From an uncultured Pseudomonadales bacterium (GTDB taxonomy: Bacteria > Patescibacteriota > Microgenomatia > UBA1400 > UBA12028): a stretch of 64,000 bases of DNA. This document shows positions 10,922-33,628 of this stretch, one piece after another. The stretch spans positions 167,671 through 231,670 of the forward strand of contig CAZDWN010000002.1 in NCBI GenBank assembly GCA_964509365.1. Reading direction: 5' to 3'. The notes under the pieces were generated by a model. It saw nothing but the letters and a program-made list of their open reading frames with translations, ran no database searches and had not been told where the DNA came from. The translations under genes were made by a program, and so were the position numbers. Positions within the stretch are counted from its first letter, which is position 1. Each line of letters begins with the position of its first letter.

Positions 10922-12088
10922 ATGAAATATATCGATCGTAGACCACAACTTGCTTCCGACCTATTGGTACAGGTTTCTCCAAATCTGCTCACCACGAAGG
11001 CACAAGTATCAAATAGTGCATTCGAAGCAGTTGAAGAGTATTACGCCCCAACTCAAAATCCGAAACAAACACTCACGGAGGCGGGCTTAAAAGCAAGTTA
11101 TTTTGGATCACAAGCACATCAATTGATGATGTTCTATTTTCTCTTGCAAGAAAAAAATGACTATCCTCATGAGAATGCCAAAGAAGTGAATGATTATCGA
11201 AGCACATATATCGCTGAACCTAACTTTACAGTTCTTCGGGATATTCTCGATTGCTTACATCCACTTTCTTCACATTTAAGCGTCAGAGAGCAAACAGTTC
11301 TTGCAATGAAATGTTGGTTGACAATGCAGGACTTCTCAACAAAAAAAGTTGACCTCCACTTACTTGCAGAAGATGAAAGAGCTCTTCTTCCCGAAGAGAA
11401 GAGAGTTGCACTTTGGATAGATGCTGGAAATCGTTCGAAGCTAACTTCAATTTTGGACACCATAGACGACTTAGCTAAAAATGCTCCAAAGCGTCTGCCG
11501 CGAACCGTACTGTTGGAAAGTCCACACATTGTTTCGTACCTAGACGGTGAATCGGGCATACAGTCGTGGATTCAGCCTGATCGCCTCCAATGGGCCAAAG
11601 ATAAAATGGTTGTCTTCGATTATAAATTCTCACAAAATTCCCTTCTCGAAAATGATTGGACAATTGCGGATTGGATTCAGATTGCATCTTTAGCAATTGT
11701 AGGAAGATTGCGCTCATCTGTGCTTTCGAGGCAAGAATATAGTAGCGTTCTCTCAAAGCCCGGTATGTACACTTTACCCATAGAAAATCTTCCGGAATTT
11801 ATTTGTGATGTCACCGTAGTATATGAGAATCCGCTTCGACGAGACAAAAATGGCATCGAACAAGTAGATGTTACTCTTTCGGAAGAGAAGACTGTTGCAG
11901 TGGTTGAATCACTGAAAAAAATTGCTTCAGATTTTAGACATCCCGACATGCGAAATGGATTTCGGGCATTTTTAAAACAAAGAACGTATGCTTCAAAATT
12001 GTTATCTCCCACTCCTATCCGTGGAAATTTGGAAGACAATGTTCAAGAGATCGCCCAATTAAATCTCTTGTATCAAGCGTATCGATGA
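10922..12088 (+). CDS. Hypothetical protein (388 aa, no recognizable domain)
   Basis: Long clean ORF; no motif I can identify. Confidence 0.4.
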   Translation: MKYIDRRPQLASDLLVQVSPNLLTTKAQVSNSAFEAVEEYYAPTQNPKQTLTEAGLKASYFGSQAHQLMMFYFLLQEKNDYPHENAKEVNDYRSTYIAEPNFTVLRDILDCLHPLSSHLSVREQTVLAMKCWLTMQDFSTKKVDLHLLAEDERALLPEEKRVALWIDAGNRSKLTSILDTIDDLAKNAPKRLPRTVLLESPHIVSYLDGESGIQSWIQPDRLQWAKDKMVVFDYKFSQNSLLENDWTIADWIQIASLAIVGRLRSSVLSRQEYSSVLSKPGMYTLPIENLPEFICDVTVVYENPLRRDKNGIEQVDVTLSEEKTVAVVESLKKIASDFRHPDMRNGFRAFLKQRTYASKLLSPTPIRGNLEDNVQEIAQLNLLYQAYR

Positions 12089-13338
12089 ATGATTCCCACT
12101 CTCATGTATTTTTGTAACACTTCTGGGACTCGAATACTTCCATCCTCATTTTGATAATTCTCAATGATTGCAGCCAAGAGTCGCGGCGTCGCGGCTACCG
12201 TATTATTGAGAGTGTAGACATACTTTGTCGTCCCATCACTCGCTCGGTAGCGCATATTCAGTCGTCTTGCCTGAAAATCATTAAAATATGAGGCAGAGTG
12301 CGTCTCACGAAATGCGTTTTGTCCGGGAAACCACGTCTCGATATCATATTTTTTTCGTTGTCCTGCACCCATATCTCCAGTGCACATAGCCAGTACTTGG
12401 TAGTGAAGTCCGAGTTTTGTCAGCAACTCTTCAGAATATCCCACCATTTTTTCATGCCACTCGCGTGTGACTGTTTCATCTGCCACCGTCAGCACGACTT
12501 GCTCGACTTTGGTAAATTGATGGACACGGAAAAATCCCTTGGTATCTTTGCCGTAACTTCCGACTTCACGTCGATAGCACGGCGAGATGCCCACCATTCT
12601 GACTGGCAAATCCTTTTCATTCATCGTTTCATTTTGGTGATACGCAGTGAGACTGACTTCAGCTGTGCCGATCAGTGCTTGACCGTCTTGAGTGGTGTAG
12701 TGGTCTTCTTGTCCCCATGGAAAATAGCCAGTTCCCCACATCGCTTCCTTATTGACCATCCAAGGCACACTCATCGCTTCAAATCCTTTTTCGATCATGA
12801 GGTTTAATGCAAACTGATGGACTGCCATTTCAAGCATCATCAAGTCTCCTTTGAGGATATACGAGCGACGTCCACCGATAGCGACCGCTTTTTCACTGTC
12901 ATACATACCCAATTCTTCTGCGAGTTCAAAATGCTGTTTTGGAGCAAATGAAAACGATGGTTTTTCGCCGACCGTGCGGACGACGACATTGCCACTCTCG
13001 TCTTTTCCGATCGGAGTATCATCGGAAGCTGGATTTGGAAGTTGATAGAGGAGATTTTGAAAAGCCTCTTCTGCTGTCTTGAGATCTGGTTCGACCGATG
13101 CCAATTGGTTCTTGAACGCTTTTCCTTTCAAGATTTCTTCTTCAGTTGGTTTACGACCCTTGATCGTGCTTGTGTGCTCATTTGCATTTTTTCTAATTTC
13201 TTCAACTGTCGCGATGAGTGATCGACGTTGTTCATCGACGGTCAGCAGTTTGTCTACCAGCGACACATCCATTTGCTTGTCTGCGACTGCCTTCCTATAT
13301 GCTTCTGTATGTTGTTGTATATATTTGATGTCGATCAT
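12073..13338 (-). CDS. serS: Seryl-tRNA synthetase
   Basis: N-terminal coiled-coil arm followed by a class II core (motifs 2 and 3: FRREVGSYGKDTKGFFRVHQFTKVE ... GAGQRKKYDIETWFPGQ). Confidence 0.9.
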   Translation of the reverse strand: MIDIKYIQQHTEAYRKAVADKQMDVSLVDKLLTVDEQRRSLIATVEEIRKNANEHTSTIKGRKPTEEEILKGKAFKNQLASVEPDLKTAEEAFQNLLYQLPNPASDDTPIGKDESGNVVVRTVGEKPSFSFAPKQHFELAEELGMYDSEKAVAIGGRRSYILKGDLMMLEMAVHQFALNLMIEKGFEAMSVPWMVNKEAMWGTGYFPWGQEDHYTTQDGQALIGTAEVSLTAYHQNETMNEKDLPVRMVGISPCYRREVGSYGKDTKGFFRVHQFTKVEQVVLTVADETVTREWHEKMVGYSEELLTKLGLHYQVLAMCTGDMGAGQRKKYDIETWFPGQNAFRETHSASYFNDFQARRLNMRYRASDGTTKYVYTLNNTVAATPRLLAAIIENYQNEDGSIRVPEVLQKYMRVGIIHRYA

Positions 13339-13344
13339 AGATTG

Positions 13345-13584
13345 TTAGAGCTTCTGAAATGCTATGGCACGAATTATTGTTGGGGAGAGTTCGTCCATGG
13401 ATGACGGCATCTCAATTTTCTGAGCATGAGCATAGTCGGCGAGTAAGTCCATCGCGAATGGAATTATAGATTTCTCGTCAAAGAAGGTATGTGGCTTCTC
13501 TGCTCGGACCACTTCCAAGATTGCAGCGCTAAACGCTGAAACAAATTTGAATCTCTCCTGACTGATTACTGGGATTTCTGTCAT
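13345..13584 (-). CDS. Small hypothetical protein (79 aa) between the T-box leader and serS
   Basis: ATG at 13582-13584 is preceded by GGAGGAAG. It is the C-terminal in-frame part of the 145-aa track ORF. Confidence 0.4.
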   Translation of the reverse strand: MTEIPVISQERFKFVSAFSAAILEVVRAEKPHTFFDEKSIIPFAMDLLADYAHAQKIEMPSSMDELSPTIIRAIAFQKL

Positions 13585-13599
13585 AACTTCCTCCTTTTG

Positions 13600-13805
13600 G
13601 TATAAAAAAACCACGACTAAAACATCCTGTAAGGACGCTTCCGCGTGGTGCCACCTTATTTTACCGTGTATCGAAACGAAGTTTCTGGTACTGCGGTCTT
13701 CATGCCAGCTATCTCGGGCTTGCCCGTCCCGTATTGATTGGGGATGCTTGAGATGGATGCTACTCCCTCTCATCGCGTTCAAAATTACTTTTATTGTATC
13801 ACTTT
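13600..13805 (-). promoter_or_regulatory. Putative T-box riboswitch leader (tRNA-sensing antiterminator) upstream of the small ORF and serS
   Basis: On the minus strand, GCGATGAGAGGGAGTAGCA closely resembles the B. subtilis glyQS stem I base (GCGAUGAGAAGAAGAGUA, GA/K-turn plus AG box). A short hairpin GAAACTTCGTTTC follows, then AATAAGGTGGCACCACGCGG matching the T-box consensus AANNAGGGUGGNACCGCGG. A terminator hairpin ACCACG...CGTGGT plus TTTTTTT sits right before the RBS. The UGGC bulge would pair with a G73 discriminator, as in tRNA-Ser. Confidence 0.5.
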
Positions 13806-13822
13806 CTGAGTGGGATACTGAC

Positions 13823-14149
13823 TCAGAGTATAAAATCCTTATCTACTCTAACATCGATGCCAGTTTTATACAGTATTGCGAGCCGAATATAATATTCCTT
13901 TTCTTCCTCCTTTAGCATTTCCCAGGTTCGCTTTATCGCCAGATTTTTCATATCTTGCCCATGAAGGGCCACGGCCTCGTAATAAAAGGAAAAATACTGT
14001 CCGGTCGAAAAGTGAGAAAAGATTTCAGTAGCAATCAATCGCAGCTCTAGCATTTCAAGACCGTAGGAGTTTTGTTGAGCTGATTCAAGCTGCATGTTGA
14101 GTATTAGAGTCCGATTATTTTTGCATCCTTTTGCATAGCTTCCAGACAC
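13823..14149 (-). CDS. Hypothetical protein
   Basis: 108-aa ORF. Confidence 0.3.
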   Translation of the reverse strand: MSGSYAKGCKNNRTLILNMQLESAQQNSYGLEMLELRLIATEIFSHFSTGQYFSFYYEAVALHGQDMKNLAIKRTWEMLKEEEKEYYIRLAILYKTGIDVRVDKDFIL

Positions 14150-16269
14150 ACTCTGGCCAGAGTCTCGAGATCGATATTGAGATGCTCGATGCCTTCCAGG
14201 ATCTCATCGCGAGTAGCTCCTTTTGCGAATCCTTTCTCTTTGAACTTACGCAAAACTCGTTCGAGCGTCACATCGGCAAGCTTTTTACTCGGCATGACGA
14301 GCGCGCAGGCGACTATAATACCGGTCATATGATCACATGCATACAGTGACCATTCCATGAGGGTCGATGGCAACCGTTGATTTGCGACGCGTGAGTAGTT
14401 ATGAGTGCGGACACTATCTCCCCACATGTCGTCTACTCCAAGTCTTTCCAATGCCTCACTCAGCACGACTGTATGTTGGTCAAATGCTGACTCTGTCTTC
14501 TCCCAGTCCGCATCATGGATGAGTCCAATGATCTTCCAACTTTCTTTCGATTCGTTGACTTCATTTGGTCGTTCGTTCGAAAAATAGTCCCACAAGCCGC
14601 CCATCGCCGATTCAACTGCTTTCATGTGCCCTCGCAAGCCGTTATTCTGTACCAATGATTCCAGCAAGGTCATCGCTTGGTCGCGAGAAAGACTTATTTG
14701 TTTCTTGTCATCCTGGCTTGTCCAGGATCTTTTTGGCCCGGATTCCGGACGCACTTCGTTTGCCGGAATGACGAGTTTTACATTTTTTCCCATGAGCATC
14801 TCAGTCATGCGAACTTGGTCAGCTGTCGGTCGCAAGGTCGGGAATGCGATCACTTCTTTGATCGACCATGTGTTGGTCAAGAACATCACCAGTCGATCAA
14901 TGCCCATACCGATCCCACCGAGCGGTGGCATACCATATTCCATGGCTTCGACGAAATCTTCATCGAGCGGCTGCGCTTCGTCATCTCCCTCTCGCATGTT
15001 TTTCTGTTCGTTCTCAAAACGAGCGCGCTGATCGAGACTGTCGGTGATCTCACTCCAGCCATCGGCCATTTCTTTCGTCCCGACATACAGTTCAAATCGT
15101 TCGACGAAGCCATCCGCATTGCGGTGTGCTTTTGCCAGTGGACTGACTTCTTTCGGGTAATCGATGATCCACGTCGGATTTAAGAGATTCGGCGTCACTA
15201 ACTTGTCAAATATCGCAAAGATCGCCTTGCCTCGCGAAAAAGAGCCTGTCGTCTCGAGTCTATGAGCTTTTAGTTTCTCTTGTATCTCATCATCTGATAC
15301 ATGATCCATGTTCCATGATAAATACTTCTCTATTGCATCCACCATTCGAAGCCGTGGCCAATTGCCTTCCAAACTGATCGTCGTCTCGCCTACTGAAAGT
15401 TCGAGACTCCCATTCACTTTTTCCGCGAGATGCTTGATCAGTCCCTCAGCTGTATCCATCATCGTCTGGTAGTCAGCGTAGGCGTGATACCACTCGATCA
15501 TCGTAAACTCAGGTTGGTGAGTTTGATCGATGCCCTCGTTGCGGAAGTTTCTGGCGATCTCAAACAATCGTTCATACCCACCGACGATCAATCGCTTCAA
15601 ATACAGCTCTGGAGCGATGCGCAGGTAAAAATTACTATCAAGTGCATTCATGTGGGTGGTAAATGGCTTCGCATTCGTCCCACCATACAGTGGTTGTAAG
15701 ACCGGTGTCTCTACTTCGACGAAATTATGGATATCTTGCAGGTACCTGCGCAGTTCCTTTTCGATCAAGAATCGGTCATCAAGCACTTTTTTGACCTTTG
15801 GGTCGATGAGCATGTCGAGGTATCGCTTGCGAAAACGAATTTCTTTGTCGTCTATACCTTGGAAGGTAGCTGGGACAGCCCGAAGCGCTTTGGAGAGCAC
15901 TTGATAGGAATCTGCTTCAATGGTGATCTCTCCTGTTTTTGACTCAATCACTTTACCCGAGACTCCCACGAAATCTGAGGCATCGATCAAGTTCACAAGG
16001 GTCTTGTAGTGATCTTCCCCGACATTCTCTTCCTTCACCATGACTTGGATGCTGCCACTATGGTCGGTCAGAGTTAAGAAAGTGACTTTGCCGTGCTCTC
16101 GCTTACTCATGATCCGGCCAGCAGTTTGCACGTCGCTCCCGAGCGATTCACGGCATGACTGAAGCGTAAAGGTTTTCGCGAATGAGTAGGGATGCACATT
16201 GATCCCAAGTGCTTCCAGTTGTTCTCTCTTTTGCTTCTTTGCTTGGATGGTTTCTTCGAGTCTAGACAT
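14104..16269 (-). CDS. lysS: Lysyl-tRNA synthetase (class II) fused in-frame to a C-terminal HD-domain phosphohydrolase
   Basis: Residues 1 to about 497 are a canonical LysRS (OB anticodon-binding domain, FRNEGIDQTHQPEFTMIEWY, GGIGMGIDRLVMFL, ending ...IAFPTLRP). About 45 residues of linker follow, then an HD domain (RGHMKAV ... IGLIHDADW ... CDHM). One continuous 721-aa ORF. Confidence 0.8.
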   Translation of the reverse strand: MSRLEETIQAKKQKREQLEALGINVHPYSFAKTFTLQSCRESLGSDVQTAGRIMSKREHGKVTFLTLTDHSGSIQVMVKEENVGEDHYKTLVNLIDASDFVGVSGKVIESKTGEITIEADSYQVLSKALRAVPATFQGIDDKEIRFRKRYLDMLIDPKVKKVLDDRFLIEKELRRYLQDIHNFVEVETPVLQPLYGGTNAKPFTTHMNALDSNFYLRIAPELYLKRLIVGGYERLFEIARNFRNEGIDQTHQPEFTMIEWYHAYADYQTMMDTAEGLIKHLAEKVNGSLELSVGETTISLEGNWPRLRMVDAIEKYLSWNMDHVSDDEIQEKLKAHRLETTGSFSRGKAIFAIFDKLVTPNLLNPTWIIDYPKEVSPLAKAHRNADGFVERFELYVGTKEMADGWSEITDSLDQRARFENEQKNMREGDDEAQPLDEDFVEAMEYGMPPLGGIGMGIDRLVMFLTNTWSIKEVIAFPTLRPTADQVRMTEMLMGKNVKLVIPANEVRPESGPKRSWTSQDDKKQISLSRDQAMTLLESLVQNNGLRGHMKAVESAMGGLWDYFSNERPNEVNESKESWKIIGLIHDADWEKTESAFDQHTVVLSEALERLGVDDMWGDSVRTHNYSRVANQRLPSTLMEWSLYACDHMTGIIVACALVMPSKKLADVTLERVLRKFKEKGFAKGATRDEILEGIEHLNIDLETLARVCLEAMQKDAKIIGL
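14706..14772. repeat. Copy A of a ~60-70 nt double-hairpin repeat (TGTCATCCTGGCTTGTCCAGGATCTTT...GATTCCGG...CCGGAATGAC), lying in-frame in the lysS-HD linker
   Basis: Its 28-nt core is identical to 24214-24241. It carries two internal inverted repeats (ATCCTGG/CCAGGAT and ATTCCGG/CCGGAAT) flanked by GTCAT/ATGAC. Confidence 0.7.
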
Positions 16270-17160: not shown

Positions 17161-17631
17161 CTACTCTATTTCAGCGATTTTGTATTTGACCTTGCCAGCG
17201 GGCGCTTCGACTTCGATCTCTTCGCCGACCTTTTTGCCGACCAATGCGGTACCAAGCGGAGAACTTTCAGAAATTTTCTTTTCGGCCGGATTTGCTTCCC
17301 ACTCACCGACGATCTTGTAGGTGTGCTTGGATTTACCGATGTGGACAGTGACAGTCGATCCAATTGCGACAGTGGTGCGACCTTTTTTGGTCTTTACCAC
17401 TTTCGCTTTGTTGACGAGGACTTCAAGCTCAGAGATTCGGCCCTCCATAAATGCCAAGTCTTCTCTGGCTGCGTGATATTCGCTGTTTTCGGAAAGATCG
17501 CCAAAAGATCGGGCGGTCGCCACGCGCTCGATAGCCACTGGAAGTTTCACATCCTTGAGCTCGGTGAGCTCTGTGACTATTTCGTCGTATCCTTCTTGTG
17601 TGAGCACCACATCATCGGTGATGGTGTTCAT
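17161..17631 (-). CDS. greA: Transcription elongation factor GreA
   Basis: N-terminal coiled coil LTQEGYDEIVTELTELK...SFGDLSENSEYHAAREDLAFMEGRISELE and a C-terminal FKBP-like domain. Confidence 0.85.
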   Translation of the reverse strand: MNTITDDVVLTQEGYDEIVTELTELKDVKLPVAIERVATARSFGDLSENSEYHAAREDLAFMEGRISELEVLVNKAKVVKTKKGRTTVAIGSTVTVHIGKSKHTYKIVGEWEANPAEKKISESSPLGTALVGKKVGEEIEVEAPAGKVKYKIAEIE

Positions 17632-18420: not shown

Positions 18421-18720
18421 TTAAATTGTTTTACTTGATAAATCAATGATAAGATCTTCATTATCATCGGGTGCGGCGATATTCATCCCTCGCTCTCCAC
18501 ACCGTTTACATTCAAAGACGATCTGCGTCTTCCCATTGCGGATCTTTAACCCAATCGGTCGCATCACACCTCCACATCCATTGAGTCTATCTCCCGGCTG
18601 TCTATCGACATGCAGTGACGTCAGACAGTAGTTGCAGTGATTTCGACTGCTGGTCGGATGTGGCAAGACTTGTCTGCTGCAATGCACGCACACGAATCCT
18701 TGGTTGTTTTCAATGAACAT
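18421..18720 (-). CDS. RNHCP domain protein (Cys-rich zinc-ribbon-like)
   Basis: RNHCNYC...CGGVMRPIGLKIRNGKTQIVFECKRCGE matches the RNHCP signature. Confidence 0.5.
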   Translation of the reverse strand: MFIENNQGFVCVHCSRQVLPHPTSSRNHCNYCLTSLHVDRQPGDRLNGCGGVMRPIGLKIRNGKTQIVFECKRCGERGMNIAAPDDNEDLIIDLSSKTI

Positions 18721-26035: not shown

Positions 26036-26508
26036 TGCGAATTGAGATTTCCACACGCAATGATCGTAGGATCATCTTTTGTGGCAGTCACGACGACGGC
26101 GAGTCTTCCCAATGCGTGAATTTGGTCAATCGTCAGCTCCAAATCCGTCTCTGAGGTCCCTGAGTCTGGCACAGTGAGTGTAAAGACGGTATCTCCCAAA
26201 TCATCACATGCACCTTGCTTCACGAAAGAGGGTTGAATCTCTTCATCATCATCAGGGGCAGTGGGAAATTTGAGATACAAATAGGTGGTCGACGTCAACT
26301 CACGATACGTGGCCGTCCCGTCCATTCCGGAATTGCCAATCGCGTGAATAGGATAGACTTCATCAACATGCGGAGGGAGCGGAGTCGCTTTGATGAGCGA
26401 CCGTTCGTACTCATGTTGACGCTTGGCATTCACAAAGAATGTGCCAAGCACCACGATACACATACAGATGAAAACCCATCGCAACACCGTCATAGGTATT
26501 AGTGACAC
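26032..26508 (-). CDS. Hypothetical secreted or membrane-anchored protein
   Basis: 158 aa with an N-terminal hydrophobic segment; last gene of the minus-strand surface array. Confidence 0.35.
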   Translation of the reverse strand: MSLIPMTVLRWVFICMCIVVLGTFFVNAKRQHEYERSLIKATPLPPHVDEVYPIHAIGNSGMDGTATYRELTSTTYLYLKFPTAPDDDEEIQPSFVKQGACDDLGDTVFTLTVPDSGTSETDLELTIDQIHALGRLAVVVTATKDDPTIIACGNLNSH

Positions 26509-28751
26509 ATGGTCGTCCCTGAGTCAGTGAACGTCTTTCCTGCTTCAGGCACGAACTGCCAGTCGTAACTATTGGAATGAAGTGTCAATTTGAGGACCCC
26601 ATAGGTACTCTGGTCAAACACTTCACTATTTGGTTGACGGACAGCTAAAGTCGTGTGGTTTGCTCCACCAGTACCGACGACGAACTCTCGAATGCCTCGG
26701 ACAGGATCAGCGACGCCGTTTGCATCTTGCGGTGCAAATCGCTCATACGTGTGATCATGGCCTGAGAGGATGAGGTCTGCATTCTTACTATAGAGAAGTG
26801 CAAACATACTCTTCATGTTGATACTTGCGCGTCCACCAGATGAGTGCACTGGAATATGGTAATAGGCCATCGTGCACTGTGTTGGGTTATTCGCAAGATC
26901 TTGCTGCAACCACACATATTGTGGTGAATTCGCGTTACATCCACCTGCTTCTCCACAGTTGGAGTTGAGCACAACGATATGCCATGCACCTTTGTTATAA
27001 CTGTAGTACCCCTTTGTCGGATCACCGGCACTGGCACCGAAATAGTTAAAGTATCCACTGGCCATAGAATTCGTAGCGTTGCAAGCGGTAGATTCAGCTG
27101 GAGTGGCGCCGCCATCAGTCAAATACTCGTGATTACCGACAGCAGGATAGGTGATGGATTTAAATTGTCCCCAACTTGTGTCATAAGATGCATTATATGC
27201 TGCCAACGAACCACAGTAGTATTGATTGTCTCCGAGAGAGATGACTGCTGATGCGCTCATGGAAGCGATCAATGAGGCCGTCGCCTTGGCCCGGCAATTT
27301 GCACTCGTGCCGTTTCCGTTATTAAAGCTTGCGATTAATGGGTCACACGCGATATCTCCTGCAGCTGCGACCACTGGATCAGCACTTGGTGTGGCAGTCG
27401 GAGTAGGACTTGGTGTCACGGTAGGTGTCGGCGTTGGAGCTATGGTTGGGGTTGGTGTCGGGGTGGGAGTACCAGTCGTCGCGACGTTCACGACGAGTGT
27501 CGGCTTATTTACCGTTTCTCGTGATCCGTAATACACGGCATCGTTCGGTGAGGTATTCGCGATCGCGAAATCATAGGTTCCATTGCCAGTTACCGTCCCA
27601 GCTGGCAAAATAGCTTCGAGCCACAGAGCCACTTTTGATGGATTCGGGAAACTTGTAATAGCACTACCGAGAGCTGGCGCATTTGCCCATGTCAGGGTGC
27701 TTTCATTCCAACTTCCCGTTGGTCTAAAAATTTGGCCACTGATCGATGATCCATTGACTGGTGCGAGCACTTTCAGGCTCGTACTCGAGATCGTCGATCC
27801 AGCAGGAATCCCCGTGACGACGAAACGTACGAAACTCTTCATCGTGCGCGCAGCATCATTTTGGACTTTGAGATCCGGATCTGCTCCATAATTGACGTTG
27901 ACCGTGTTCGACTGAATATATGCATCTTCAGTTGAGGTAAATGTCAGCGGTCCGGTGACAACTGGAAGGGCGTCGGGGCTTGGCGATGGCATGACAGTCG
28001 GTGTCGCAGTCGGCATGATTGTTGGTGAGGGAGCTCGAGTCGGTGTCGCTGTTGGCGTCACATCTGGAGTGACTAGAGGTGTTGGGGTCGGTGTATCTGT
28101 CGGAGTGACCGTTGGCACTGGGGTTGGCGCCGCCCAAGTGAGTACCAATGTTGGTTTGTTCACCGTTTCGCGTGATCCAAAATAGATCGCGTCAGTTGGC
28201 GAAGTGTTCGCAATTACGACATCATAATTTCCGTTACCAGTCACAAACCCAGTAGGAAGTGTGGCTTGTGTCCACGTAGCGGTCTTTGAAGGATTCGGGA
28301 AACTCGTAAGAATGGTTCCCATGGCAGGAGCATTGGTCCATGTCAACGTATTTTCAGTCCAGGCTCCTGTCACTCGATAGATGGCTCCTCCAATGGCTGA
28401 TCCATTCGCAGGAGCGAACATTTTCAGAGTCGCACTCGTAATAGTCGCCCCATCTGGAATACCAGTGACACTAAATCGAACGTAGCTCCTCATGGTACGT
28501 ACGGCATCATTTTGGACTTTGAGATCTGGGTCAGCTCCGTAATTCACGTCCACGGTATTTGACTGAATAAACGCATCCTCAGTCGAGACAAAGGAGACCG
28601 CTGTATCCGCCACCGCCGGCGCCGTGAGGATCCGAGTTGCGAATACCAAAGCAGCCGCGATAGTTACTATCGCAGCTGCAAGGGCTATATATCGTTGATT
28701 TTTGGACACAATTGAGTTTTTCATATTGTGAAGTATATCACAATAACTCAA
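26499..28751 (-). CDS. Secreted protein with two tandem DNRLRE domains, P/T linkers and a C-terminal purple-acid-phosphatase-like metallophosphatase
   Basis: Two ~155-aa repeats (STEDA[FY]IQSNTV[DN]VNYGADPDLKVQNDA...SRETVNKPTLV) and PT-rich linkers. The metallophosphatase motifs AAAGDIACDP, LGDNQYYCG, AVGNHEY and SGHDHTYERF are all present. Confidence 0.7.
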   Translation of the reverse strand: MSYCDILHNMKNSIVSKNQRYIALAAAIVTIAAALVFATRILTAPAVADTAVSFVSTEDAFIQSNTVDVNYGADPDLKVQNDAVRTMRSYVRFSVTGIPDGATITSATLKMFAPANGSAIGGAIYRVTGAWTENTLTWTNAPAMGTILTSFPNPSKTATWTQATLPTGFVTGNGNYDVVIANTSPTDAIYFGSRETVNKPTLVLTWAAPTPVPTVTPTDTPTPTPLVTPDVTPTATPTRAPSPTIMPTATPTVMPSPSPDALPVVTGPLTFTSTEDAYIQSNTVNVNYGADPDLKVQNDAARTMKSFVRFVVTGIPAGSTISSTSLKVLAPVNGSSISGQIFRPTGSWNESTLTWANAPALGSAITSFPNPSKVALWLEAILPAGTVTGNGTYDFAIANTSPNDAVYYGSRETVNKPTLVVNVATTGTPTPTPTPTIAPTPTPTVTPSPTPTATPSADPVVAAAGDIACDPLIASFNNGNGTSANCRAKATASLIASMSASAVISLGDNQYYCGSLAAYNASYDTSWGQFKSITYPAVGNHEYLTDGGATPAESTACNATNSMASGYFNYFGASAGDPTKGYYSYNKGAWHIVVLNSNCGEAGGCNANSPQYVWLQQDLANNPTQCTMAYYHIPVHSSGGRASINMKSMFALLYSKNADLILSGHDHTYERFAPQDANGVADPVRGIREFVVGTGGANHTTLAVRQPNSEVFDQSTYGVLKLTLHSNSYDWQFVPEAGKTFTDSGTTMCH
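27491..28616 (-). repeat. Intragenic tandem duplication encoding the two DNRLRE domains
   Basis: The two protein repeats are about 70% identical, and DNA strings such as gtttctcgtgatcc recur at about 27515 and 28160. Confidence 0.5.
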
Positions 28752-28752
28752 T

Positions 28753-30906
28753 TTATTTTATTATAAGCATTGCTTTCCCACTGCTGGCCTCAGCTGAACG
28801 GAAGACACCAGAGGTAGAGTCGCTCGCAATGACGATCGATGTGACCTTCCCAGCACGACTTCTAAAGAGTGATGTCAAGTCGACACTATTGCCATTAAAC
28901 GTACCGATTTTTTGTCGGGTGATCGATGGTCGGGAATTCCAGGTTAGGATGTTTTCTCCCCAAGATGTATTGTTAATCCAGTACACACTCATACCGTTGG
29001 CGGAGCCTGAAGTTGCGGTCAATTTCAGCACAGCCGAGTGGATCTTGGATGACGAAATGCCGTCAAGGTCGAATTTTAAGTACACTTCCTTGCGAGGACT
29101 GTTGTCCACTTCTAGCGTCGTTGCCTTCCCATAGTTCGTATTCCCTGCAGACTGATTGACAGTCGCATCGTGGGTCGGGTAAAGCAGCTTACCAATGATA
29201 TCGTCATTGTCGCCATCGCCAGGTGGAGTTGTAGCCACTGGCGTAGCAGTCGGCCGAGTAGTCGGCGATGGAGTCGCAGTCGGCTGCGGAGTCACTGTCG
29301 GCGTCCCAAACGGAGTTGCCGTTGGGAATGGGGTCACATTTGGAGTACTCGTCGGTACCACCGTCGGAATTGGCGTCACAAATGGCGTTGCAGTCGCAAT
29401 TGTGGTCGGTGTCGGTGTGATCGCATTGCAGTTTGTCCCCAATCCAGTCGGGATACAAGCGGTGTTTGCCAAGAGCAGTAAAGTATCAATCTTCACTCCC
29501 GCTTCCTTTTGGATGAGCTTAAAGGTATGAGTACCTGCACCGAGAGCTGTAATTGTGCGATTAGTCGTGACTCCATCGCGATAGTCGATCCACTGCCAGC
29601 TATTGACAGGCATCGCCGCATTGTCACCAATGACTGCAGGACAGGTCGAGTCGACTTGGAGATAGTATGCATTTGAAGCAGTTCCGGCAGACATCATACG
29701 TGTCCAGATGGCGTATGTGCCAGCAGTGACATTCGTTGCCGTCAGTGTCGCACTTGGTAATCCGGTGACATTGACGTTACAGGCGACTGGCGTCGACGTT
29801 GGATTTGCTGTCACTGTTGGTGTCGGCGTAGCTGCACGAGGAGTGGCAGTTGCGGTTGGTTGCGGGATCGGAGTGGCTGTTGCTGGACGAGGCGTAGGAG
29901 ACGCAGTTGCTGGCGTGGTTGGAGGTGGCGTGACCACTGGTCCGCCATTATCCGAGATCGTGAAGCTGTCTCCAAATGTCCCACCTGCCGTACGCACAAA
30001 GCTGTACGTCATTTGTGTCGGCGTGACGACGAATTTGCCGATTCCATACGTCGTAATATCATACGAGTTAAAATATTGAGCTTCAGCGTCTCCGGTATTG
30101 AGTGAACGAAGCGATTGACCCCCAGTGCCGATGACATGAATGATTGTCCCAGCACCTTTGGTAAGTGAGTTTCCAGAATTGACGACACAAGTCGAATCAA
30201 ACGTGCCGGTCTTTGCACAGGTAAGTTGCTTTGATCGCTCATATCCATGCTCATGACCTTGCAAGATGACATCTACTCGCTTGTTTATCATCATTGGGAT
30301 GAGATCAGCACCAAGTTCATTCCCTTTTTCCATCATACTGATATAGTTTTTATGCATTCCGACGACGACCCATTTGATCCCTTTGGCGTGCGCATCATCG
30401 ATTGCGTTTGCAGTAAACGTATATCCTTGACTCCCGACTTTATAGTTTGTATCCATGCCGACAAAACTTCCACCAAGGCCTGGAGAGATCATAATGAAAC
30501 GAATATATGGGTTTGACGCTGGATAGTCCCAGTAGTATTGTTTGCCGTAGGTACCGGTGACGGTGGCAGCCGGAGCTAGACAGTTTGCAATATAGGTATT
30601 GATATTCCCGGAGCTACTTTCCCCACTGTCATGATTACCTGAGACGAGCATCAAATTCACTCCTGCAGTCTTCCAAGCTCCACACCATGACGCTTCAGCG
30701 GTCGTGTATGCGAGATCTCCTAGAGCGAGATGGAATGCTGGATTGATACCTTTCGCTGCAGCGACGGCGGCCTGAAAATTGCCACCATTGGCATAGTCAC
30801 CAGCGGCAGTAAATGTCACTGATTGCGCTCTCGCTACGGAACTGAAACTTACAAACAGAGCGGTCACTAAGGCGACGATTGGAAAAAGATAGGTGAGTTT
30901 TTTCAT
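28753..30906 (-). CDS. Secreted protein with an N-terminal metallophosphatase, a beta-rich middle region, P/T linkers and a C-terminal DNRLRE domain
   Basis: Signal peptide, then the motifs FTAAGDYANGG, LALGDLAYT, VSGNHD and LQGHEHGYERS. C-terminal NTNYGKATTLEVDNSPRKEVYLKFDL...WNSRP (DNRLRE). This is the reverse domain order of the neighbouring gene. Confidence 0.7.
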   Translation of the reverse strand: MKKLTYLFPIVALVTALFVSFSSVARAQSVTFTAAGDYANGGNFQAAVAAAKGINPAFHLALGDLAYTTAEASWCGAWKTAGVNLMLVSGNHDSGESSSGNINTYIANCLAPAATVTGTYGKQYYWDYPASNPYIRFIMISPGLGGSFVGMDTNYKVGSQGYTFTANAIDDAHAKGIKWVVVGMHKNYISMMEKGNELGADLIPMMINKRVDVILQGHEHGYERSKQLTCAKTGTFDSTCVVNSGNSLTKGAGTIIHVIGTGGQSLRSLNTGDAEAQYFNSYDITTYGIGKFVVTPTQMTYSFVRTAGGTFGDSFTISDNGGPVVTPPPTTPATASPTPRPATATPIPQPTATATPRAATPTPTVTANPTSTPVACNVNVTGLPSATLTATNVTAGTYAIWTRMMSAGTASNAYYLQVDSTCPAVIGDNAAMPVNSWQWIDYRDGVTTNRTITALGAGTHTFKLIQKEAGVKIDTLLLLANTACIPTGLGTNCNAITPTPTTIATATPFVTPIPTVVPTSTPNVTPFPTATPFGTPTVTPQPTATPSPTTRPTATPVATTPPGDGDNDDIIGKLLYPTHDATVNQSAGNTNYGKATTLEVDNSPRKEVYLKFDLDGISSSKIHSAVLKLTATSGSANGMSVYWINNTSWGENILTWNSRPSITRQKIGTFNGNSVDLTSLFRSRAGKVTSIVIASDSTSGVFRSAEASSGKAMLIIK

Positions 30907-31435: not shown

Positions 31436-33628
31436 TTAGTGACAGGGGATATTTGTTCCTTTATCAGTATAACTAGAACCAGCAATTGGTACAAACTCAA
31501 AGTCGTAGCTGGATGCATGCAATACGAGCTTGAGTACGCCATAGGTGGCATCATTCTTTGCGACACTGTTTGCTGCAGTCGTCACAAACTGGGTAAAGTT
31601 GCGACCGCCAGCGCCATTGACGATCTCCACTAGGCCATTGGCGTTGTCGACTGCTCCGCTCGCTGTCATGGGCGCGAATCGCTCGTAATTATGTTCGTGC
31701 CCTGCAAGAACCAATTCGCCATGTCCATCATAAAAGGCTTTGTACAATGGTGTTTTGTCTCCACCTTCATTTGCTCTACTTCCCGAAGTCCAAAGTGGAT
31801 GGTGCACCGTCATGATCGTACACATTTTTGGATTGGCAGCCATGTCGGCACGAAGCCACTGCTCTTGAGGACTGCCTGCGCCGCATCCGCCAGCAGTACT
31901 ACAGTTACTATTCATGTTGTACACGCGCCAACTTCCAATATTGACCGCATAGTACCCTTTGGATCGATCACCAGCGCGACCACTTTGGACGCCAACGCCG
32001 TTGAAATAATCATAATACCCAGATGCGCCAGAGGTAATGTACTCGTGATTGCCGACCGTCGGATAGGTAATACTCTTAAAACGACCCCAAGACTTGTCAT
32101 AAAAGTTCATGAAATCCGCATACGAACCGGACTCATATTGAGTGTCCCCAAGGACAAGCACTGCAGCCGGATTCATTGCCGCCGCGACATTTGCGGTCTC
32201 TTGTTGTTTACACGCTGCCCCTGTGCTTCCTGCGCCGCATACAATATCACCGACTGCTGCCACTACCGGATCCGTACCTGATACTGGTGGGATCGAGGAA
32301 ATTGGTGTGGCTGGAGGTTTAGAGGTTGGAGCCGGCGTCGTGCCACTGGAGCCAGAGCCAGTTTCAAGTGCAGGAAGATTTCGGTTCAAAATGTCGACGT
32401 ACAGATTCTTAAATTGATATCCGTTTGTTTTGAGTGTAGCCGTCCCACTCGTCGTTTGATTGACTTGGTCTGCAGGTTCGACACCAGATCCTTCGCCCCA
32501 CTCGTTCCATGTCTCCGTCAGCTTCCAGGTCACATTTGAAGAGACCATTGCTTTGACGCCAGCTTCAAATGAAGCAGGATCGCGAGGCAGTCGTTCTGCA
32601 GAATTATTGAGCCAAAAGCCAGGGGAGACAAAGTACCACCAGTTGCCTTTGGTGTTCGTACGAATTGCTGGAGCATACTCGTGCCAGCCATCCATCGCCA
32701 ATGGATCGGCGCCAGCGTTGAGTGGATCCGCCTTCATGACCACATAAAAGCCAGTTAGAGCGCGAGCTTGTGACCATCGTGAGAGGTCCTCGCTTGGATT
32801 TGAGCCGGAGTGTGCTGCGTTGTAGACAAACACGACAGGTTTCCCATTGATCTTAAGGTACCCTTTTTGAGTTGCGTAGTTTGATTTGATGTAGTTGAGA
32901 TCACCGACGATTTCGCTAAGTGGCGGATTGCCAAAGCCTTCCTTTTCGTAGTAAATTGCCCAACGTAGATTCGGATATGGGTTGTCGGCTCGATTCATGA
33001 CGTCAGTGATGATGTGTCGGAAAGCTCCGTTGGTCTTGTGTGTCTGTCCCCACCATGAGGAGATCGCAACTTCTTGCTTTGCTTCAGCGAGTTTACGGAG
33101 TTGCCAATAGATGATCGAGTCATTTGAAGAGCTATAGAGCTCGTTCGCAGGATCAAACTTGGTTGGCTCTGGATCAGGAAGATACTCAGAGAACCAGTTA
33201 CCCGGGACACCATGACCGAGATCATTCCACTGACTCCACGTCCCGTCAGTGTTTGGATTTTGATACCACGGATAAAAGAACGTTGCGTAATAGGGAGCAC
33301 TTGGTTGGAATCCCACAGTGCCTGGCAGATTTGTCGGCTGTGGCGTCACCGTAGGGAGTGCTGTGGGGTTTGGAGTAACCACAGCGGTAGGAGCCGGAGT
33401 AATGACTATTCCACCAAACTGCAAATATTGCCCGTTTGAGGCCGTAGAATCCGACAGGACTTGTACAGCTCCAATCGTGGCTGAGTTTTCCGCTTCAAGC
33501 GTCGTGTACTGAGCGGCTTTTGAAAAGAAATGGGTGACGCTATTCGCGACGAGCACACCGACGAGCAAAGTAATAAATAAGACGAGTACAAGGACAAAAG
33601 ACAGTAGGTTTGGTTTTTTATTCTCCAT
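31436..33628 (-). CDS. Membrane-anchored protein with a putative glycoside-hydrolase-like (GH99/endo-alpha-mannosidase-like) TIM-barrel domain and a C-terminal metallophosphatase
   Basis: TM anchor and a PT linker. YYATFFYPWYQNPNTDGTWSQW...SSWWGQ...WAIYYE resembles GH99-type motifs; that family assignment is tentative. The C-terminus carries VAAVGDIVCGAGS, VLGDTQYESG, TVGNHEY and AGHEHNYERF. Confidence 0.6.
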   Translation of the reverse strand: MENKKPNLLSFVLVLVLFITLLVGVLVANSVTHFFSKAAQYTTLEAENSATIGAVQVLSDSTASNGQYLQFGGIVITPAPTAVVTPNPTALPTVTPQPTNLPGTVGFQPSAPYYATFFYPWYQNPNTDGTWSQWNDLGHGVPGNWFSEYLPDPEPTKFDPANELYSSSNDSIIYWQLRKLAEAKQEVAISSWWGQTHKTNGAFRHIITDVMNRADNPYPNLRWAIYYEKEGFGNPPLSEIVGDLNYIKSNYATQKGYLKINGKPVVFVYNAAHSGSNPSEDLSRWSQARALTGFYVVMKADPLNAGADPLAMDGWHEYAPAIRTNTKGNWWYFVSPGFWLNNSAERLPRDPASFEAGVKAMVSSNVTWKLTETWNEWGEGSGVEPADQVNQTTSGTATLKTNGYQFKNLYVDILNRNLPALETGSGSSGTTPAPTSKPPATPISSIPPVSGTDPVVAAVGDIVCGAGSTGAACKQQETANVAAAMNPAAVLVLGDTQYESGSYADFMNFYDKSWGRFKSITYPTVGNHEYITSGASGYYDYFNGVGVQSGRAGDRSKGYYAVNIGSWRVYNMNSNCSTAGGCGAGSPQEQWLRADMAANPKMCTIMTVHHPLWTSGSRANEGGDKTPLYKAFYDGHGELVLAGHEHNYERFAPMTASGAVDNANGLVEIVNGAGGRNFTQFVTTAANSVAKNDATYGVLKLVLHASSYDFEFVPIAGSSYTDKGTNIPCH

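What the first reader, a model, noticed from the sequence alone, without database searches (positions are those of the whole stretch)
14104..16269. Lysyl-tRNA synthetase translationally fused to an HD-domain hydrolase
LysRS ends at the canonical ...FPTLRP and then reads through a ~45-aa linker into a ~190-aa HD phosphohydrolase domain (H...HD...D motifs). LysRS is the main cellular source of Ap4A, and HD-domain YqeK-family enzymes hydrolyse Ap4A. A fusion would couple synthesis and removal of this alarmone, or confer another nucleotide-editing role. The link to Ap4A is my inference, not something shown by the sequence.
Basis: partly seen in the sequence, partly recalled or inferred. Interest (0 to 1): 0.6.

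Follow-up and report, generated by a model that had tools for sequence, protein, structure and literature searches.

The report
LysRS fused to uncharacterised HD hydrolase
A candidate-phyla-radiation (CPR) bacterium encodes its lysyl-tRNA synthetase and a catalytically intact HD-type metal phosphohydrolase as one protein; the fusion is real and has arisen repeatedly from a conserved lysS-HD-serS gene trio, but the hydrolase is not a YqeK Ap4A hydrolase and its substrate is unknown.

Summary
Window 14104-16269 (minus strand) is one uninterrupted 721-aa ORF: a complete class II LysRS (aa 1-482), a ~42-aa disordered linker, and a 197-aa HD domain with all six two-metal ligands (H548, H585/D586, H599, H623, D646). 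It is not an assembly artefact. Two independent assemblies of the same clade (L002, L084) read through the junction, and their linkers differ only by in-frame indels. At least 22 further LysRS-II::HD fusion clusters exist, from at least four lineages by rough trees.

The HD domain is not YqeK. It belongs to a large uncharacterised HDIG-type family that is usually free-standing. In CPR bacteria this gene sits between lysS and serS (greA-lysS-HD-serS), often only 2-40 nt from lysS, whether the LysRS is class I or class II. Other fusion partners and neighbours of the family are free-nucleotide enzymes (Ham1, MazG, NUDIX, HAD, GGDEF).

Best reading: a tethered nucleotide phosphohydrolase. Synthetase-made Ap4A/NpnN is the leading candidate substrate, but this is unproven. 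General nucleotide house-cleaning and a tRNA-directed role remain live rivals. The architecture is undescribed in the papers searched. Interest is moderate.

The parts
14104..16269 (-). Whole LysRS::HD ORF, 721 aa plus TAA stop (14104-14106)
   Evidence: One continuous ORF with a single terminal stop.
14824..16269 (-). Class II lysyl-tRNA synthetase module, aa 1-482 (OB anticodon-binding domain aa 47-125 = 15895-16131; catalytic core aa 141-479 = 14833-15849)
   Evidence: NF001756 604.9 bits (cutoff 468), TIGR00499 533 bits, PF01336 and PF00152 with full-length profile coverage. It is 56-66% identical to free-standing Patescibacteria LysRS in the alignment, and those LysRS are listed.
14698..14823 (-). 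Inter-domain linker, aa 483-524 (ADQVRMTEMLMGKNVKLVIPANEVRPESGPKRSWTSQDDKKQ)
   Evidence: pLDDT is below 50 for aa 494-522 in the full-length AF2 model. Length and sequence vary between fusions, with in-frame indels of 13 and 16 codons against L002 and L084. No promoter-like or terminator-like site on the coding strand here.
14107..14697 (-). HD-superfamily phosphohydrolase domain, aa 525-721, of an uncharacterised HDIG-type family; Ile525 (ATA) aligns with the start Met of free-standing homologues
   Evidence: E 1e-30 to 1e-99 to free-standing HD proteins. AF2 pLDDT 95, pTM 0.92, all-helical. Foldseek matches HD folds. 36 of 36 relatives hit HDIG and 33 of 36 hit PF01966. Start-codon remnant seen.
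14332..14628 (-). Predicted two-metal ligand set: H548 (14626-14628), H585-D586 (14512-14517), H599 (14473-14475), H623 (14401-14403), D646 (14332-14334); family-specific invariant residues D588, E590, G650, F681, R687 lie nearby
   Evidence: Invariant or nearly invariant across the family and kept in 17 of 17 fused copies. Same six-ligand pattern as YqeK H21/H50/D51/H83/H109/D127. Coordinates verified.
17161..17631 (-). greA, upstream member of the conserved CPR block greA-lysS-HD-serS
   Evidence: PF03449 and PF01272. GreA lies upstream of lysS in 17 related loci and in L084, L086-L089.
12073..13338 (-). serS (seryl-tRNA synthetase), downstream member of the block
   Evidence: PF02403 and PF00587. 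SerRS lies downstream of the HD gene in 14 of 20 related loci and in L084-L092.
13345..14149 (-). Two small ORFs of unknown function (108 aa, 13823-14149, overlapping the fusion's 3' end by 46 nt; 145 aa, 13345-13782) in the variable slot between the HD domain and serS
   Evidence: No Pfam hit. In other CPR loci this slot holds Ham1, NUDIX, YfbR-like HD, IMPDH and GMP synthase.

Best explanation
SHOWN: the ORF is one polypeptide. It is a complete class II LysRS joined by a flexible linker of about 42 residues to an HD-superfamily domain that keeps a full six-ligand, two-metal site. The HD module belongs to a large uncharacterised HDIG-type family, about 175-200 aa when free-standing, and is not YqeK. 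In CPR/Patescibacteria that gene is embedded in a conserved block greA-lysS-HD-serS, often only 2-40 nt from lysS. LysRS::HD fusions recur in at least four lineages. INFERRED (origin): each fusion arose by loss of the lysS stop and the HD start; here Ile525 (ATA) sits where homologues have ATG. INFERRED (mechanism): the HD domain is an active metal-dependent phosphohydrolase working on a free nucleotide rather than on tRNA. Being tethered and co-expressed 1:1 with LysRS, it hydrolyses nucleotide side-products at the place they are made. The leading candidates are the dinucleoside polyphosphates (Ap4A, Ap3A, Ap4N) that class II LysRS, and also SerRS, form from the aminoacyl-adenylate. It would act alongside the Ham1/NUDIX house-cleaning enzymes that other CPR genomes encode in the same slot. 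The substrate itself is not shown.
For: Fusion is real: continuous ORF. Independent read-through in L002 and L084 with in-frame linker indels. Further fusions in L009, L026, L027, about 12 clusters, and at least 22 of the top 148 family representatives. Fused loci are scattered on rough NJ trees and have unrelated linkers. Catalytic competence: all ligands kept in 17 of 17 fused copies; the pattern equals YqeK's binuclear site; the best PDB sequence-profile hits are YqeK Ap4A hydrolases, though weak (E 1.5e-3). Operon linkage: LysRS lies directly upstream in 19 of 80 genome loci, all CPR-type except one labelled archaeal, and in none of the Bathyarchaeia, Chloroflexota or Clostridia loci. SerRS lies downstream. 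Gaps are 2-4 nt in L086-L092. Free-nucleotide theme: the family is also fused to Ham1 (P0253), MazG (P0380), PAS-GGDEF (P0339) and LysRS-HAD (P0251). NUDIX and Ham1 follow the fusion in L085. Among 40 ORFs in the lysS-to-serS slot there are Ham1 x4, YfbR-like x2, NUDIX x2, IMPDH and GMP synthase. Flexible tether: pTM 0.47 and a disordered linker. That LysRS and SerRS make Ap4A is established knowledge, not tested here.
Against: The same HD gene is equally tightly linked to class I LysRS (L001, L003, L020, L028, L086-L092). Class I LysRS needs tRNA to activate lysine and is not a documented Ap4A source (my knowledge; the search found nothing decisive). Most family members are free-standing, and outside CPR they have no LysRS neighbour and no consistent neighbour at all. 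The family also occurs in Clostridia-type genomes (L048, L051, L052, L063, L076, L082, L083), whose phylum normally uses YqeK (abstract of PMC13584722), which argues against simple functional equivalence (inference). YqeK's R133-x-F135 segment is not visible at the aligned positions. The nearest folds are GlyRS-beta HD domains, and the nearest sequence family is the RNase Y HD domain, both RNA-associated. AF2 gives no defined LysRS-HD interface. Fusion of neighbours 2-40 nt apart could be neutral.
Confidence: 0.5

Rival explanations
1. General nucleotide-pool house-cleaning or salvage hydrolase with no mechanistic tie to LysRS. The HD enzyme removes non-canonical or surplus nucleotides. It sits next to lysS only because of an inherited compact housekeeping block, and fusions are neutral accidents of 2-40 nt spacing that LysRS tolerates at its C-terminus.
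For: Partners and neighbours are classic house-cleaning enzymes: Ham1, MazG, NUDIX, HAD, YfbR-like. Outside CPR there are scattered DNA-repair neighbours (HhH-GPD, MGMT domain, endonuclease V). The family is mostly free-standing. Linkage persists when the LysRS class changes. No predicted interface. CPR LysRS also accepts other C-terminal add-ons (PF09391; B3_4 on class I).
Against: The lysS-HD-serS order is kept across very divergent CPR lineages while the other genes in the slot vary. No HD::SerRS fusion was seen even though HD-serS gaps are equally short. Fusion to class II LysRS recurred in at least 22 clusters, against none to class I, among the top 148 representatives.
Confidence: 0.3
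2. tRNA- or RNA-directed HD domain. It would act like the HD domains of RNase Y, the bacterial CCA-adding enzyme or GlyRS-beta, either healing tRNA(Lys) 3' ends (2',3'-cyclic phosphate or 3'-phosphate) or contacting the acceptor arm to assist aminoacylation.
For: The best fold matches are GlyRS-beta HD domains (7eiv_C E 2.9e-4, TMq 0.56), which are proposed to contact the acceptor arm and discriminator base. 28 of 36 relatives hit the RNase Y HD region, and 24 of 36 hit the HD tail of the NCBIfam model PRK12703, named tRNA (cytidine(56)-2'-O)-methyltransferase. TrmI/GCD14 is next to the HD gene in 4 non-CPR loci. The gene lies between two aaRS genes. CPR lack bacterial-type GlyRS.
Against: GlyRS-beta HD is catalytically degenerate (HD replaced by SK), whereas this one keeps every ligand. 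TM-scores are only about 0.55, with rmsd about 7 A. None of the other fusion partners is an RNA enzyme; they are free-nucleotide enzymes. A disordered tether of roughly 30 aa or more does not suggest a fixed tRNA-binding geometry.
Confidence: 0.13
3. The HD domain is a YqeK-family (COG1713) symmetric Ap4A hydrolase in the strict sense.
For: Weak profile hits to YqeK structures 8jja, 2o08, 2ogi, 8wmy and 3ccg (E 1.5e-3 to 0.46). Same six metal ligands.
Against: The window sequence has no TIGR00488 hit, and only 6 of 36 relatives hit it, all far below threshold. The His3 spacing differs (14 residues after HD here, 33 in YqeK). The conserved D-x-x-[ST]-G-[LIF]-[LI]-V-A-x-A-L-V and KKF..K.FA....R motifs have no YqeK counterpart. 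Foldseek TM to YqeK structures is 0.34-0.48.
Confidence: 0.03
4. Artefact: there are really two genes (lysS and HD), joined by a sequencing or assembly error that removed a stop codon or shifted the frame.
For: Most relatives have two separate genes. No reads are available for this window.
Against: Three independent assemblies of the same clade are fused, with in-frame indels in the linker and no start codon at the HD boundary. Dozens of other fused clusters come from other samples.
Confidence: 0.02

Closest known systems
YqeK (COG1713 / TIGR00488), HD-domain symmetric Ap4A/Ap4N hydrolase of Gram-positive bacteria
   Same: Small all-helical HD protein of about 190 aa. Same six-ligand binuclear pattern H...HD...H...H...D. 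Weak profile-level sequence similarity. It would fit the product of the LysRS side reaction.
   Different: Fails the YqeK model. The spacing of the third His differs. YqeK's R18/R133/F135/F163 substrate contacts are not recognisable. It carries its own conserved motifs after the last Asp. Fold similarity is only generic (TM 0.34-0.48). YqeK's characteristic partner is NadD (the NCBIfam model PRK07152, named nicotinate-nucleotide adenylyltransferase, is hit by 9 of 36 relatives; that it is a NadD-YqeK fusion model is from memory), not LysRS.
HD domain of the beta-subunit of bacterial (alpha-beta)2 glycyl-tRNA synthetase
   Same: It is an HD domain that is physically part of an aminoacyl-tRNA synthetase. 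It is the best structural match (7eiv, 7yse, 8ie2, 7lu4). Both are sequence-related to the RNase Y HD domain.
   Different: The GlyRS-beta HD has lost the catalytic His-Asp (Ser-Lys in E. coli). It is an internal, rigidly packed domain that affects tRNA charging. Here all ligands are intact, and the domain is C-terminal on a disordered tether. CPR do not have this GlyRS type.
Other LysRS fusions: LysX (LysRS-MprF, NF002821); CPR LysRS+PF09391; class I LysRS+B3_4
   Same: LysRS carries an extra enzymatic or accessory domain, and the C-terminus of LysRS tolerates additions in CPR.
   Different: LysX uses Lys-tRNA to lysinylate lipid. NF002821 scores 501 bits against a cutoff of 742, and there is no MprF part. 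None of these carries an HD domain.
HD domain of bacterial CCA-adding enzyme (2',3'-cyclic phosphodiesterase/phosphatase; my own knowledge, Yakunin et al. 2004) and of RNase Y
   Same: An HDIG-type HD domain attached to an enzyme that handles tRNA or RNA. The RNase Y model is hit by 28 of 36 relatives.
   Different: No nucleotidyltransferase head, KH domain or membrane anchor is present. The hits cover only the generic H...HD core.

Membership tests
Class II lysyl-tRNA synthetase (LysS; NF001756 / TIGR00499) | Whole-protein score above the curated cutoff of the LysRS models | tested here: met
   NF001756 604.9 bits (cutoff 468); TIGR00499 533.2 bits (cutoff 427.6); aa 6-481 cover model positions 2-487 of 488.
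Class II lysyl-tRNA synthetase (LysS; NF001756 / TIGR00499) | N-terminal OB anticodon-binding domain plus class IIb catalytic core | tested here: met
   PF01336 at aa 47-125 (61 bits); PF00152 at aa 141-479 (296 bits, profile positions 1-307 of 308).
Class II lysyl-tRNA synthetase (LysS; NF001756 / TIGR00499) | Lysylation of tRNA(Lys); Ap4A side reaction | not testable with these tools
   Needs enzyme assays.
HD superfamily (PF01966) | Conserved H...HD...D metal-binding residues on an all-helical fold | tested here: met
   H548, H585-D586 and D646 (plus H599 and H623) are conserved family-wide. AF2 pLDDT 95, all helices. Foldseek hits to many HD proteins.
HD superfamily (PF01966) | Score above the Pfam gathering threshold | tested here: inconclusive
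   The window sequence itself gives no PF01966 hit, but 33 of 36 homologues do (best E 5.9e-12), and the window domain is E 1e-30 or better to them.
HDIG subgroup (TIGR00277) | Score above the 27.6-bit cutoff of the HDIG domain model | tested here: inconclusive
   Window 16.4 bits (E 0.006), below the cutoff. 36 of 36 relatives match, best E 7.1e-15. The motif here is HDAD, not HDIG.
YqeK Ap4A hydrolase (TIGR00488 / COG1713) | Match to the YqeK equivalog model | tested here: not met
   No hit for the window domain at E<=1. Only 6 of 36 relatives hit, best E 4.5e-4.
YqeK Ap4A hydrolase (TIGR00488 / COG1713) | Binuclear metal site (H21, H50, D51, H83, H109, D127 in GtYqeK) | tested here: met
   Six equivalent ligands are present and invariant. 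The spacing of the third His differs. The 3D clustering of the residues was not inspected because model coordinates are not exposed.
YqeK Ap4A hydrolase (TIGR00488 / COG1713) | Substrate-contact residues R18, R133, F135, F163 | tested here: not met
   After the last Asp the family has D-x-x-[ST]-G-[LIF]-[LI]-V-A-x-A-L-V instead of YqeK's R-x-F segment, and there is no conserved Arg three residues before the first His. This is a sequence-level comparison only.
YqeK Ap4A hydrolase (TIGR00488 / COG1713) | Symmetric hydrolysis of Ap4A to 2 ADP | not testable with these tools
   Needs a biochemical assay.
GlyRS beta-subunit HD domain | Embedded in the B1-B2-HD-ATL-ABD architecture, with a degenerate HD dyad | tested here: not met
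   It is the best fold match, but here the domain is C-terminal to a LysRS, no other beta-subunit domain is present, and the HD dyad is intact.
LysX (LysRS-MprF, NF002821) | Score above cutoff and presence of the lysyl-phosphatidylglycerol synthase part | tested here: not met
   501.5 bits against a cutoff of 742. The match covers only model positions 617-1101, the LysRS part.

The most novel reading that the evidence does not exclude
This uncharacterised HDIG-type family would be the 'missing' dinucleoside-polyphosphate (Ap4A/Ap4N) hydrolase of CPR bacteria, and perhaps of many archaea, analogous to but distinct from YqeK and ApaH. The recurrent LysRS::HD fusions would then be self-limiting alarmone modules, in which the main Ap4A producer carries its own Ap4A-destroying domain on a flexible tether.
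Probability: 0.27. Interest if true: 0.75.

Novelty: new variant of a known kind. Interest (0 to 1): 0.5.

Why it matters
Aminoacyl-tRNA synthetases with appended domains are known, but I found no characterised synthetase carrying a catalytically intact HD phosphohydrolase. No paper in the searched library describes this LysRS-HD architecture. The HD family itself is large (442 representative clusters at E<=1e-30 and 2,606 at E<=1e-10) and has no assigned function. Three lines of context give a concrete and cheap experimental entry point: the conserved lysS-HD-serS trio, repeated fusion to LysRS, and fusions to Ham1, MazG, HAD and GGDEF. The experiment is to assay the domain on NpnN and non-canonical nucleotides. 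If the substrate is Ap4A, this would identify a new Ap4A hydrolase family and a built-in control on synthetase-derived alarmones in minimal-genome bacteria. If it is not, it still assigns a function to a widespread family. The locus also documents in-situ swapping between class I and class II LysRS among close relatives.

Tried and rejected
(1) Single-sequence classification of the tail failed: Pfam gave nothing, NCBIfam gave only a sub-threshold HDIG hit, and phmmer against PDB gave nothing at E<=10. It needed homologue collection and profiles.
(3) The full-length AF2 model was meant to reveal a LysRS-HD interface. It gave pTM 0.47 and a disordered linker, so it carries no interface information.
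(4) The promoter and terminator scan around the junction found nothing on the coding strand and nothing above the shuffled expectation. I found no evidence for separate expression of the HD part.
(5) The survey of 112 nearest neighbours of the HD gene outside CPR found no consistent partner (TrmI/GCD14 x4 at most). CPR-like loci lacking a LysRS neighbour also showed no pattern.
(6) I tested whether the divergent 'type C' HD subgroup exists only as fusions, which would imply an ancient fixed fusion. Rejected: its closest 120 relatives are all free-standing proteins of about 175 aa.
(7) The sequencing-artefact explanation is rejected on the basis of independent assemblies and in-frame indels.
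(8) Literature searches for 'COG2316', for Patescibacteria plus lysyl-tRNA synthetase, for CPR plus aaRS plus HD domain, and for class I LysRS plus Ap4A returned nothing relevant.
(9) Genome-wide presence or absence of yqeK and apaH in the host genomes could not be tested, because only loci of about 12 kb are retrievable.
Full report
OBSERVATION. The window has a single ORF at 14104..16269 on the minus strand. It starts with ATG, encodes 721 aa, and its only stop is the terminal TAA. Residues 6-481 match the lysine--tRNA ligase models well above their curated cutoffs: NF001756 at 604.9 bits against 468, and TIGR00499 at 533 bits against 427.6. Pfam finds the OB anticodon-binding domain at aa 47-125 and the class II core at aa 141-479. 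The LysRS part ends ...AFPTLRPT at aa 475-482. After that comes a 42-residue linker (aa 483-524) and then a 197-residue C-terminal domain (aa 525-721).

IS THE TAIL AN HD DOMAIN? Scanned on its own, the tail reaches no Pfam or NCBIfam threshold. The best hit is TIGR00277 (HDIG) at 16 bits against a cutoff of 27.6, and phmmer finds nothing in the PDB. In the 5.8-billion-protein collection, however, it matches hundreds of free-standing HD proteins of about 184 aa at E 1e-30 to 1e-99. When relatives are scanned individually, 36 of 36 hit HDIG and 33 of 36 hit PF01966. An AF2 model built on a 36-sequence alignment is all-helical with pLDDT 95 and pTM 0.92, and Foldseek matches it to HD folds. The residues conserved across the family are H548, H585-D586, D588, E590, H599, H623-N624 and D646. 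This is the six-ligand H...HD...H...H...D pattern of binuclear HD enzymes.

IS THE FUSION REAL? L002 (a JGI metagenome) and L084 (SRR22387840) carry proteins that are 75% and 58% identical to the window in the HD part. Both read straight from ...FPTLRP into the HD domain. Their linkers share the first 8-10 residues and then differ from the window's by in-frame deletions of 13 and 16 codons. That pattern is what selection to keep a single reading frame would produce. The codon aligned with the start Met of free-standing homologues is ATA (Ile525). Further in-frame LysRS-II::HD fusions occur in L009 (a 938-kb chromosome), L026 and L027. About a dozen more protein clusters ranked first in a junction-spanning search. 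At least 22 of the top 148 representatives in an exhaustive HD-profile search are fusions. On rough NJ trees the fused loci are interspersed with unfused ones, and their linkers are unrelated and range from 22 to 45 aa. This indicates at least four independent fusion events. The trees have no support values, so that count is approximate. All 17 fused copies that I examined keep every metal ligand.

GENOMIC CONTEXT. The window's gene order is ATP synthase alpha/gamma/beta, RNHCP, epsilon, GreA, a methyltransferase-like ORF, a 111-aa ORF, LysRS::HD, two small ORFs, SerRS and then SecA. I scanned GTDB species genomes with the HD profile and kept 80 loci. In 19 of them a LysRS lies directly upstream on the same strand. 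Eighteen of the 19 have CPR/Patescibacteria labels or the CPR-type synteny; some are labelled 'uncultured Gammaproteobacteria', which I take to be mislabels (inference). The remaining one, L028, is labelled 'uncultured archaeon'. SerRS follows the HD gene in 14 of 20 related loci. None of the Bathyarchaeia, Chloroflexota or Clostridia loci has a LysRS within 6 kb, and their 112 nearest neighbours show no consistent partner.

The upstream LysRS can be of either class. The closest free-standing relative (L001; HD 71% and GreA 78% identical to the window) has a class I LysRS fused to a B3_4 domain in exactly the same position. The abundant Pacebacteria-type loci L086-L092 read GreA, class I LysRS, a 2-4 nt gap, HD, a 2 nt gap, SerRS, SecA. 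So greA-lysS-HD-serS is an old, tightly packed CPR block in which the LysRS class has been replaced in situ. The fusions are sporadic descendants of this adjacency. Consistent with that, even the divergent HD subgroup first seen only as fusions is overwhelmingly free-standing.

WHAT KIND OF HD ENZYME? It is not YqeK. The window domain has no TIGR00488 hit, and only 6 of 36 relatives touch that model (best E 4.5e-4). By comparison, 28 of 36 hit the RNase Y HD region, and 24 of 36 hit the HD tail of the model PRK12703, named tRNA (cytidine(56)-2'-O)-methyltransferase. A profile search of PDB sequences does rank YqeK proteins first (8jja at E 1.5e-3, then 2o08, 2ogi, 8wmy, 3ccg), but weakly, and mainly over the H...HD core. 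YqeK's binuclear ligands (H21, H50, D51, H83, H109, D127) have counterparts here. Its substrate contacts (R18, R133, F135, F163; PMC13627108) do not. After the last Asp the family carries its own invariant motif D-x-x-[ST]-G-[LIF]-[LI]-V-A-x-A-L-V, followed by KKF..K.FA....R.

By fold, the nearest solved structures are the HD domains inside bacterial GlyRS beta-subunits (7eiv_C at E 2.9e-4, TMq 0.56). Other HD proteins, including YqeK, come at E>=0.1. That GlyRS domain is catalytically degenerate (HD replaced by SK) and is thought to contact the tRNA acceptor arm (PMC8464048). It is sequence-related to the RNase Y HD domain, and CPR bacteria lack this GlyRS type (bioRxiv 10.1101/2023.05.29.542759).

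CLUES TO THE SUBSTRATE. The long members among the top family representatives show other fusion partners. These are HD+Ham1/ITPase (P0253), MazG+HD (P0380), PAS-PAS-GGDEF+HD (P0339), a triple LysRS-HAD-HD protein (P0251), AMMECR1+HD (P0313) and beta-propeller+HD (P0277). In L085 the triple fusion is followed directly by NUDIX and Ham1 genes, and then by serS. I scanned 40 ORFs lying between lysS and serS in CPR loci. They include Ham1 x4, YfbR-like 5'-nucleotidase x2, NUDIX x2, IMPDH, GMP synthase, a LOG-family protein and a histidine phosphatase. These partners all handle free nucleotides, which favours a small-nucleotide substrate over tRNA. The full-length AF2 model has pTM 0.47 with aa 494-522 below pLDDT 50. 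It therefore shows a flexible tether and gives no evidence for a fixed interface.

INTERPRETATION. It is shown that this is a bifunctional polypeptide with a complete LysRS and a catalytically intact HD domain from an uncharacterised family, and that it derives from a conserved CPR operon by recurrent gene fusion. It is inferred that the HD domain is a two-metal phosphohydrolase acting on free nucleotides, co-expressed with and tethered to the synthetase.

The most LysRS-relevant substrates are the dinucleoside polyphosphates made from lysyl-adenylate. SerRS, the other conserved neighbour, also makes Ap4A; this is established knowledge and was not tested here. I give this 'nucleotide by-product clearance at the synthetase' reading a probability of about 0.5, and the specific claim that Ap4A/NpnN is the physiological substrate about 0.27.

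The main rival, at about 0.3, is a general house-cleaning or salvage hydrolase whose fusion to LysRS is a tolerated accident of 2-40 nt spacing. It is supported by the Ham1, MazG and NUDIX associations, by the equally tight linkage to class I LysRS, and by the family's mostly free-standing state. The family's presence in Clostridia-type genomes, which normally have YqeK, points the same way (inference).

A tRNA-directed role, at about 0.13, is suggested by the GlyRS-beta, RNase Y and PRK12703 (Trm56-named model) similarities. It is weakened by the intact active site and by the nucleotide-enzyme partners.

One weak observation favours a class II-specific benefit. Among the top 148 representatives there are at least 22 class II fusions and no class I fusion, although class I-HD gaps are only 2-8 nt. 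I could not normalise this for how often each class lies upstream.

NOVELTY. The fused proteins are present in public databases as 'lysine--tRNA ligase', 'lysyl-tRNA synthetase class 2', 'predicted hydrolase (HD superfamily)' or 'hypothetical protein'. I found no paper describing the architecture or the HD family's function. The paper library is incomplete, so this is not proof of absence. I rate the finding as a new variant of a known kind, namely a synthetase with an appended accessory domain combined with an HD phosphohydrolase. Interest is moderate: it is a clean and testable lead rather than a demonstrated new mechanism.

Noticed in passing
window 14824-16269 versus L001:5577-7961 (also L003, L019, L020, L028, L086-L092): In-situ replacement of LysRS class. 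Close relatives with the same synteny (GreA 78% and HD 71% identical) carry a class I LysRS where the window has class II. Across CPR the slot upstream of the HD gene holds either class.
   Followed up: partly
L001:5577-7961, L003:1-624, L019:2030-4336: The class I LysRS of some CPR genomes is fused at its C-terminus to a B3_4 domain (PF03483, the PheRS-beta editing-type domain), giving 768-794-aa proteins. I know of no described role for this domain on LysRS.
   Followed up: partly
P0169 (629 aa), P0230 (630 aa): Class II LysRS fused to PF09391 at the C-terminus. This is another LysRS add-on in relatives, so the LysRS C-terminus looks like a hotspot for appended domains in CPR.
   Followed up: no
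L085:571-4947 (P0251 and downstream genes): A 918-aa triple fusion LysRS-HAD phosphatase-HD is followed immediately by NUDIX and Ham1 genes and then serS, a compact run of nucleotide hydrolases behind lysS.
   Followed up: partly
P0253, P0380, P0339, P0313, P0277: The same HD family is also fused to Ham1/ITPase, MazG, PAS-PAS-GGDEF, AMMECR1 and a PQQ-like beta-propeller. Each is a single representative cluster, and none was checked on its contig.
   Followed up: partly
window 26499-51340 (-): A run of six large ORFs (717-2382 aa). Four of them (26499-28751, 28753-30906, 31436-33628, 39045-43754) carry calcineurin-like Metallophos domains. Across the six there are also CBM96, GH99-like, CarboxypepD_reg, SdrD_B, fn3 and purple-acid-phosphatase N-terminal domains. 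They look like a family of secreted or surface phosphoesterases.
   Followed up: partly
window 13823-14149 (-): A 108-aa ORF with no Pfam match, with a GTG start, overlaps the last 46 nt of the LysRS::HD ORF. It may be a real small gene or a mis-called start.
   Followed up: no
window 14539-14580 (-), aa 564-577 of the fusion: The window's HD clade (window, L002, L084, L001, L003, and also P0004/P0005) has an insertion of about 8 residues (...SNERPNEVNESKES...) between the first His and the HD dyad, relative to most of the family.
   Followed up: no
window 18421-18720 (-); L001:3647-3952; L084:290-589: An RNHCP-domain protein (PF12647, 99-101 aa) is conserved next to the ATP synthase epsilon gene in this clade.
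   Followed up: no
window 1-64000: No tRNA, tmRNA or Rfam family was detected anywhere in the 64 kb.
   Followed up: yes
L010-L083, non-CPR loci: Outside CPR, the tRNA m1A58 methyltransferase TrmI/GCD14 is the nearest neighbour of the HD gene in 4 loci, and DNA-repair genes (HhH-GPD, MGMT DNA-binding domain, endonuclease V in L037) appear a few times. The numbers are too small to interpret.
   Followed up: no
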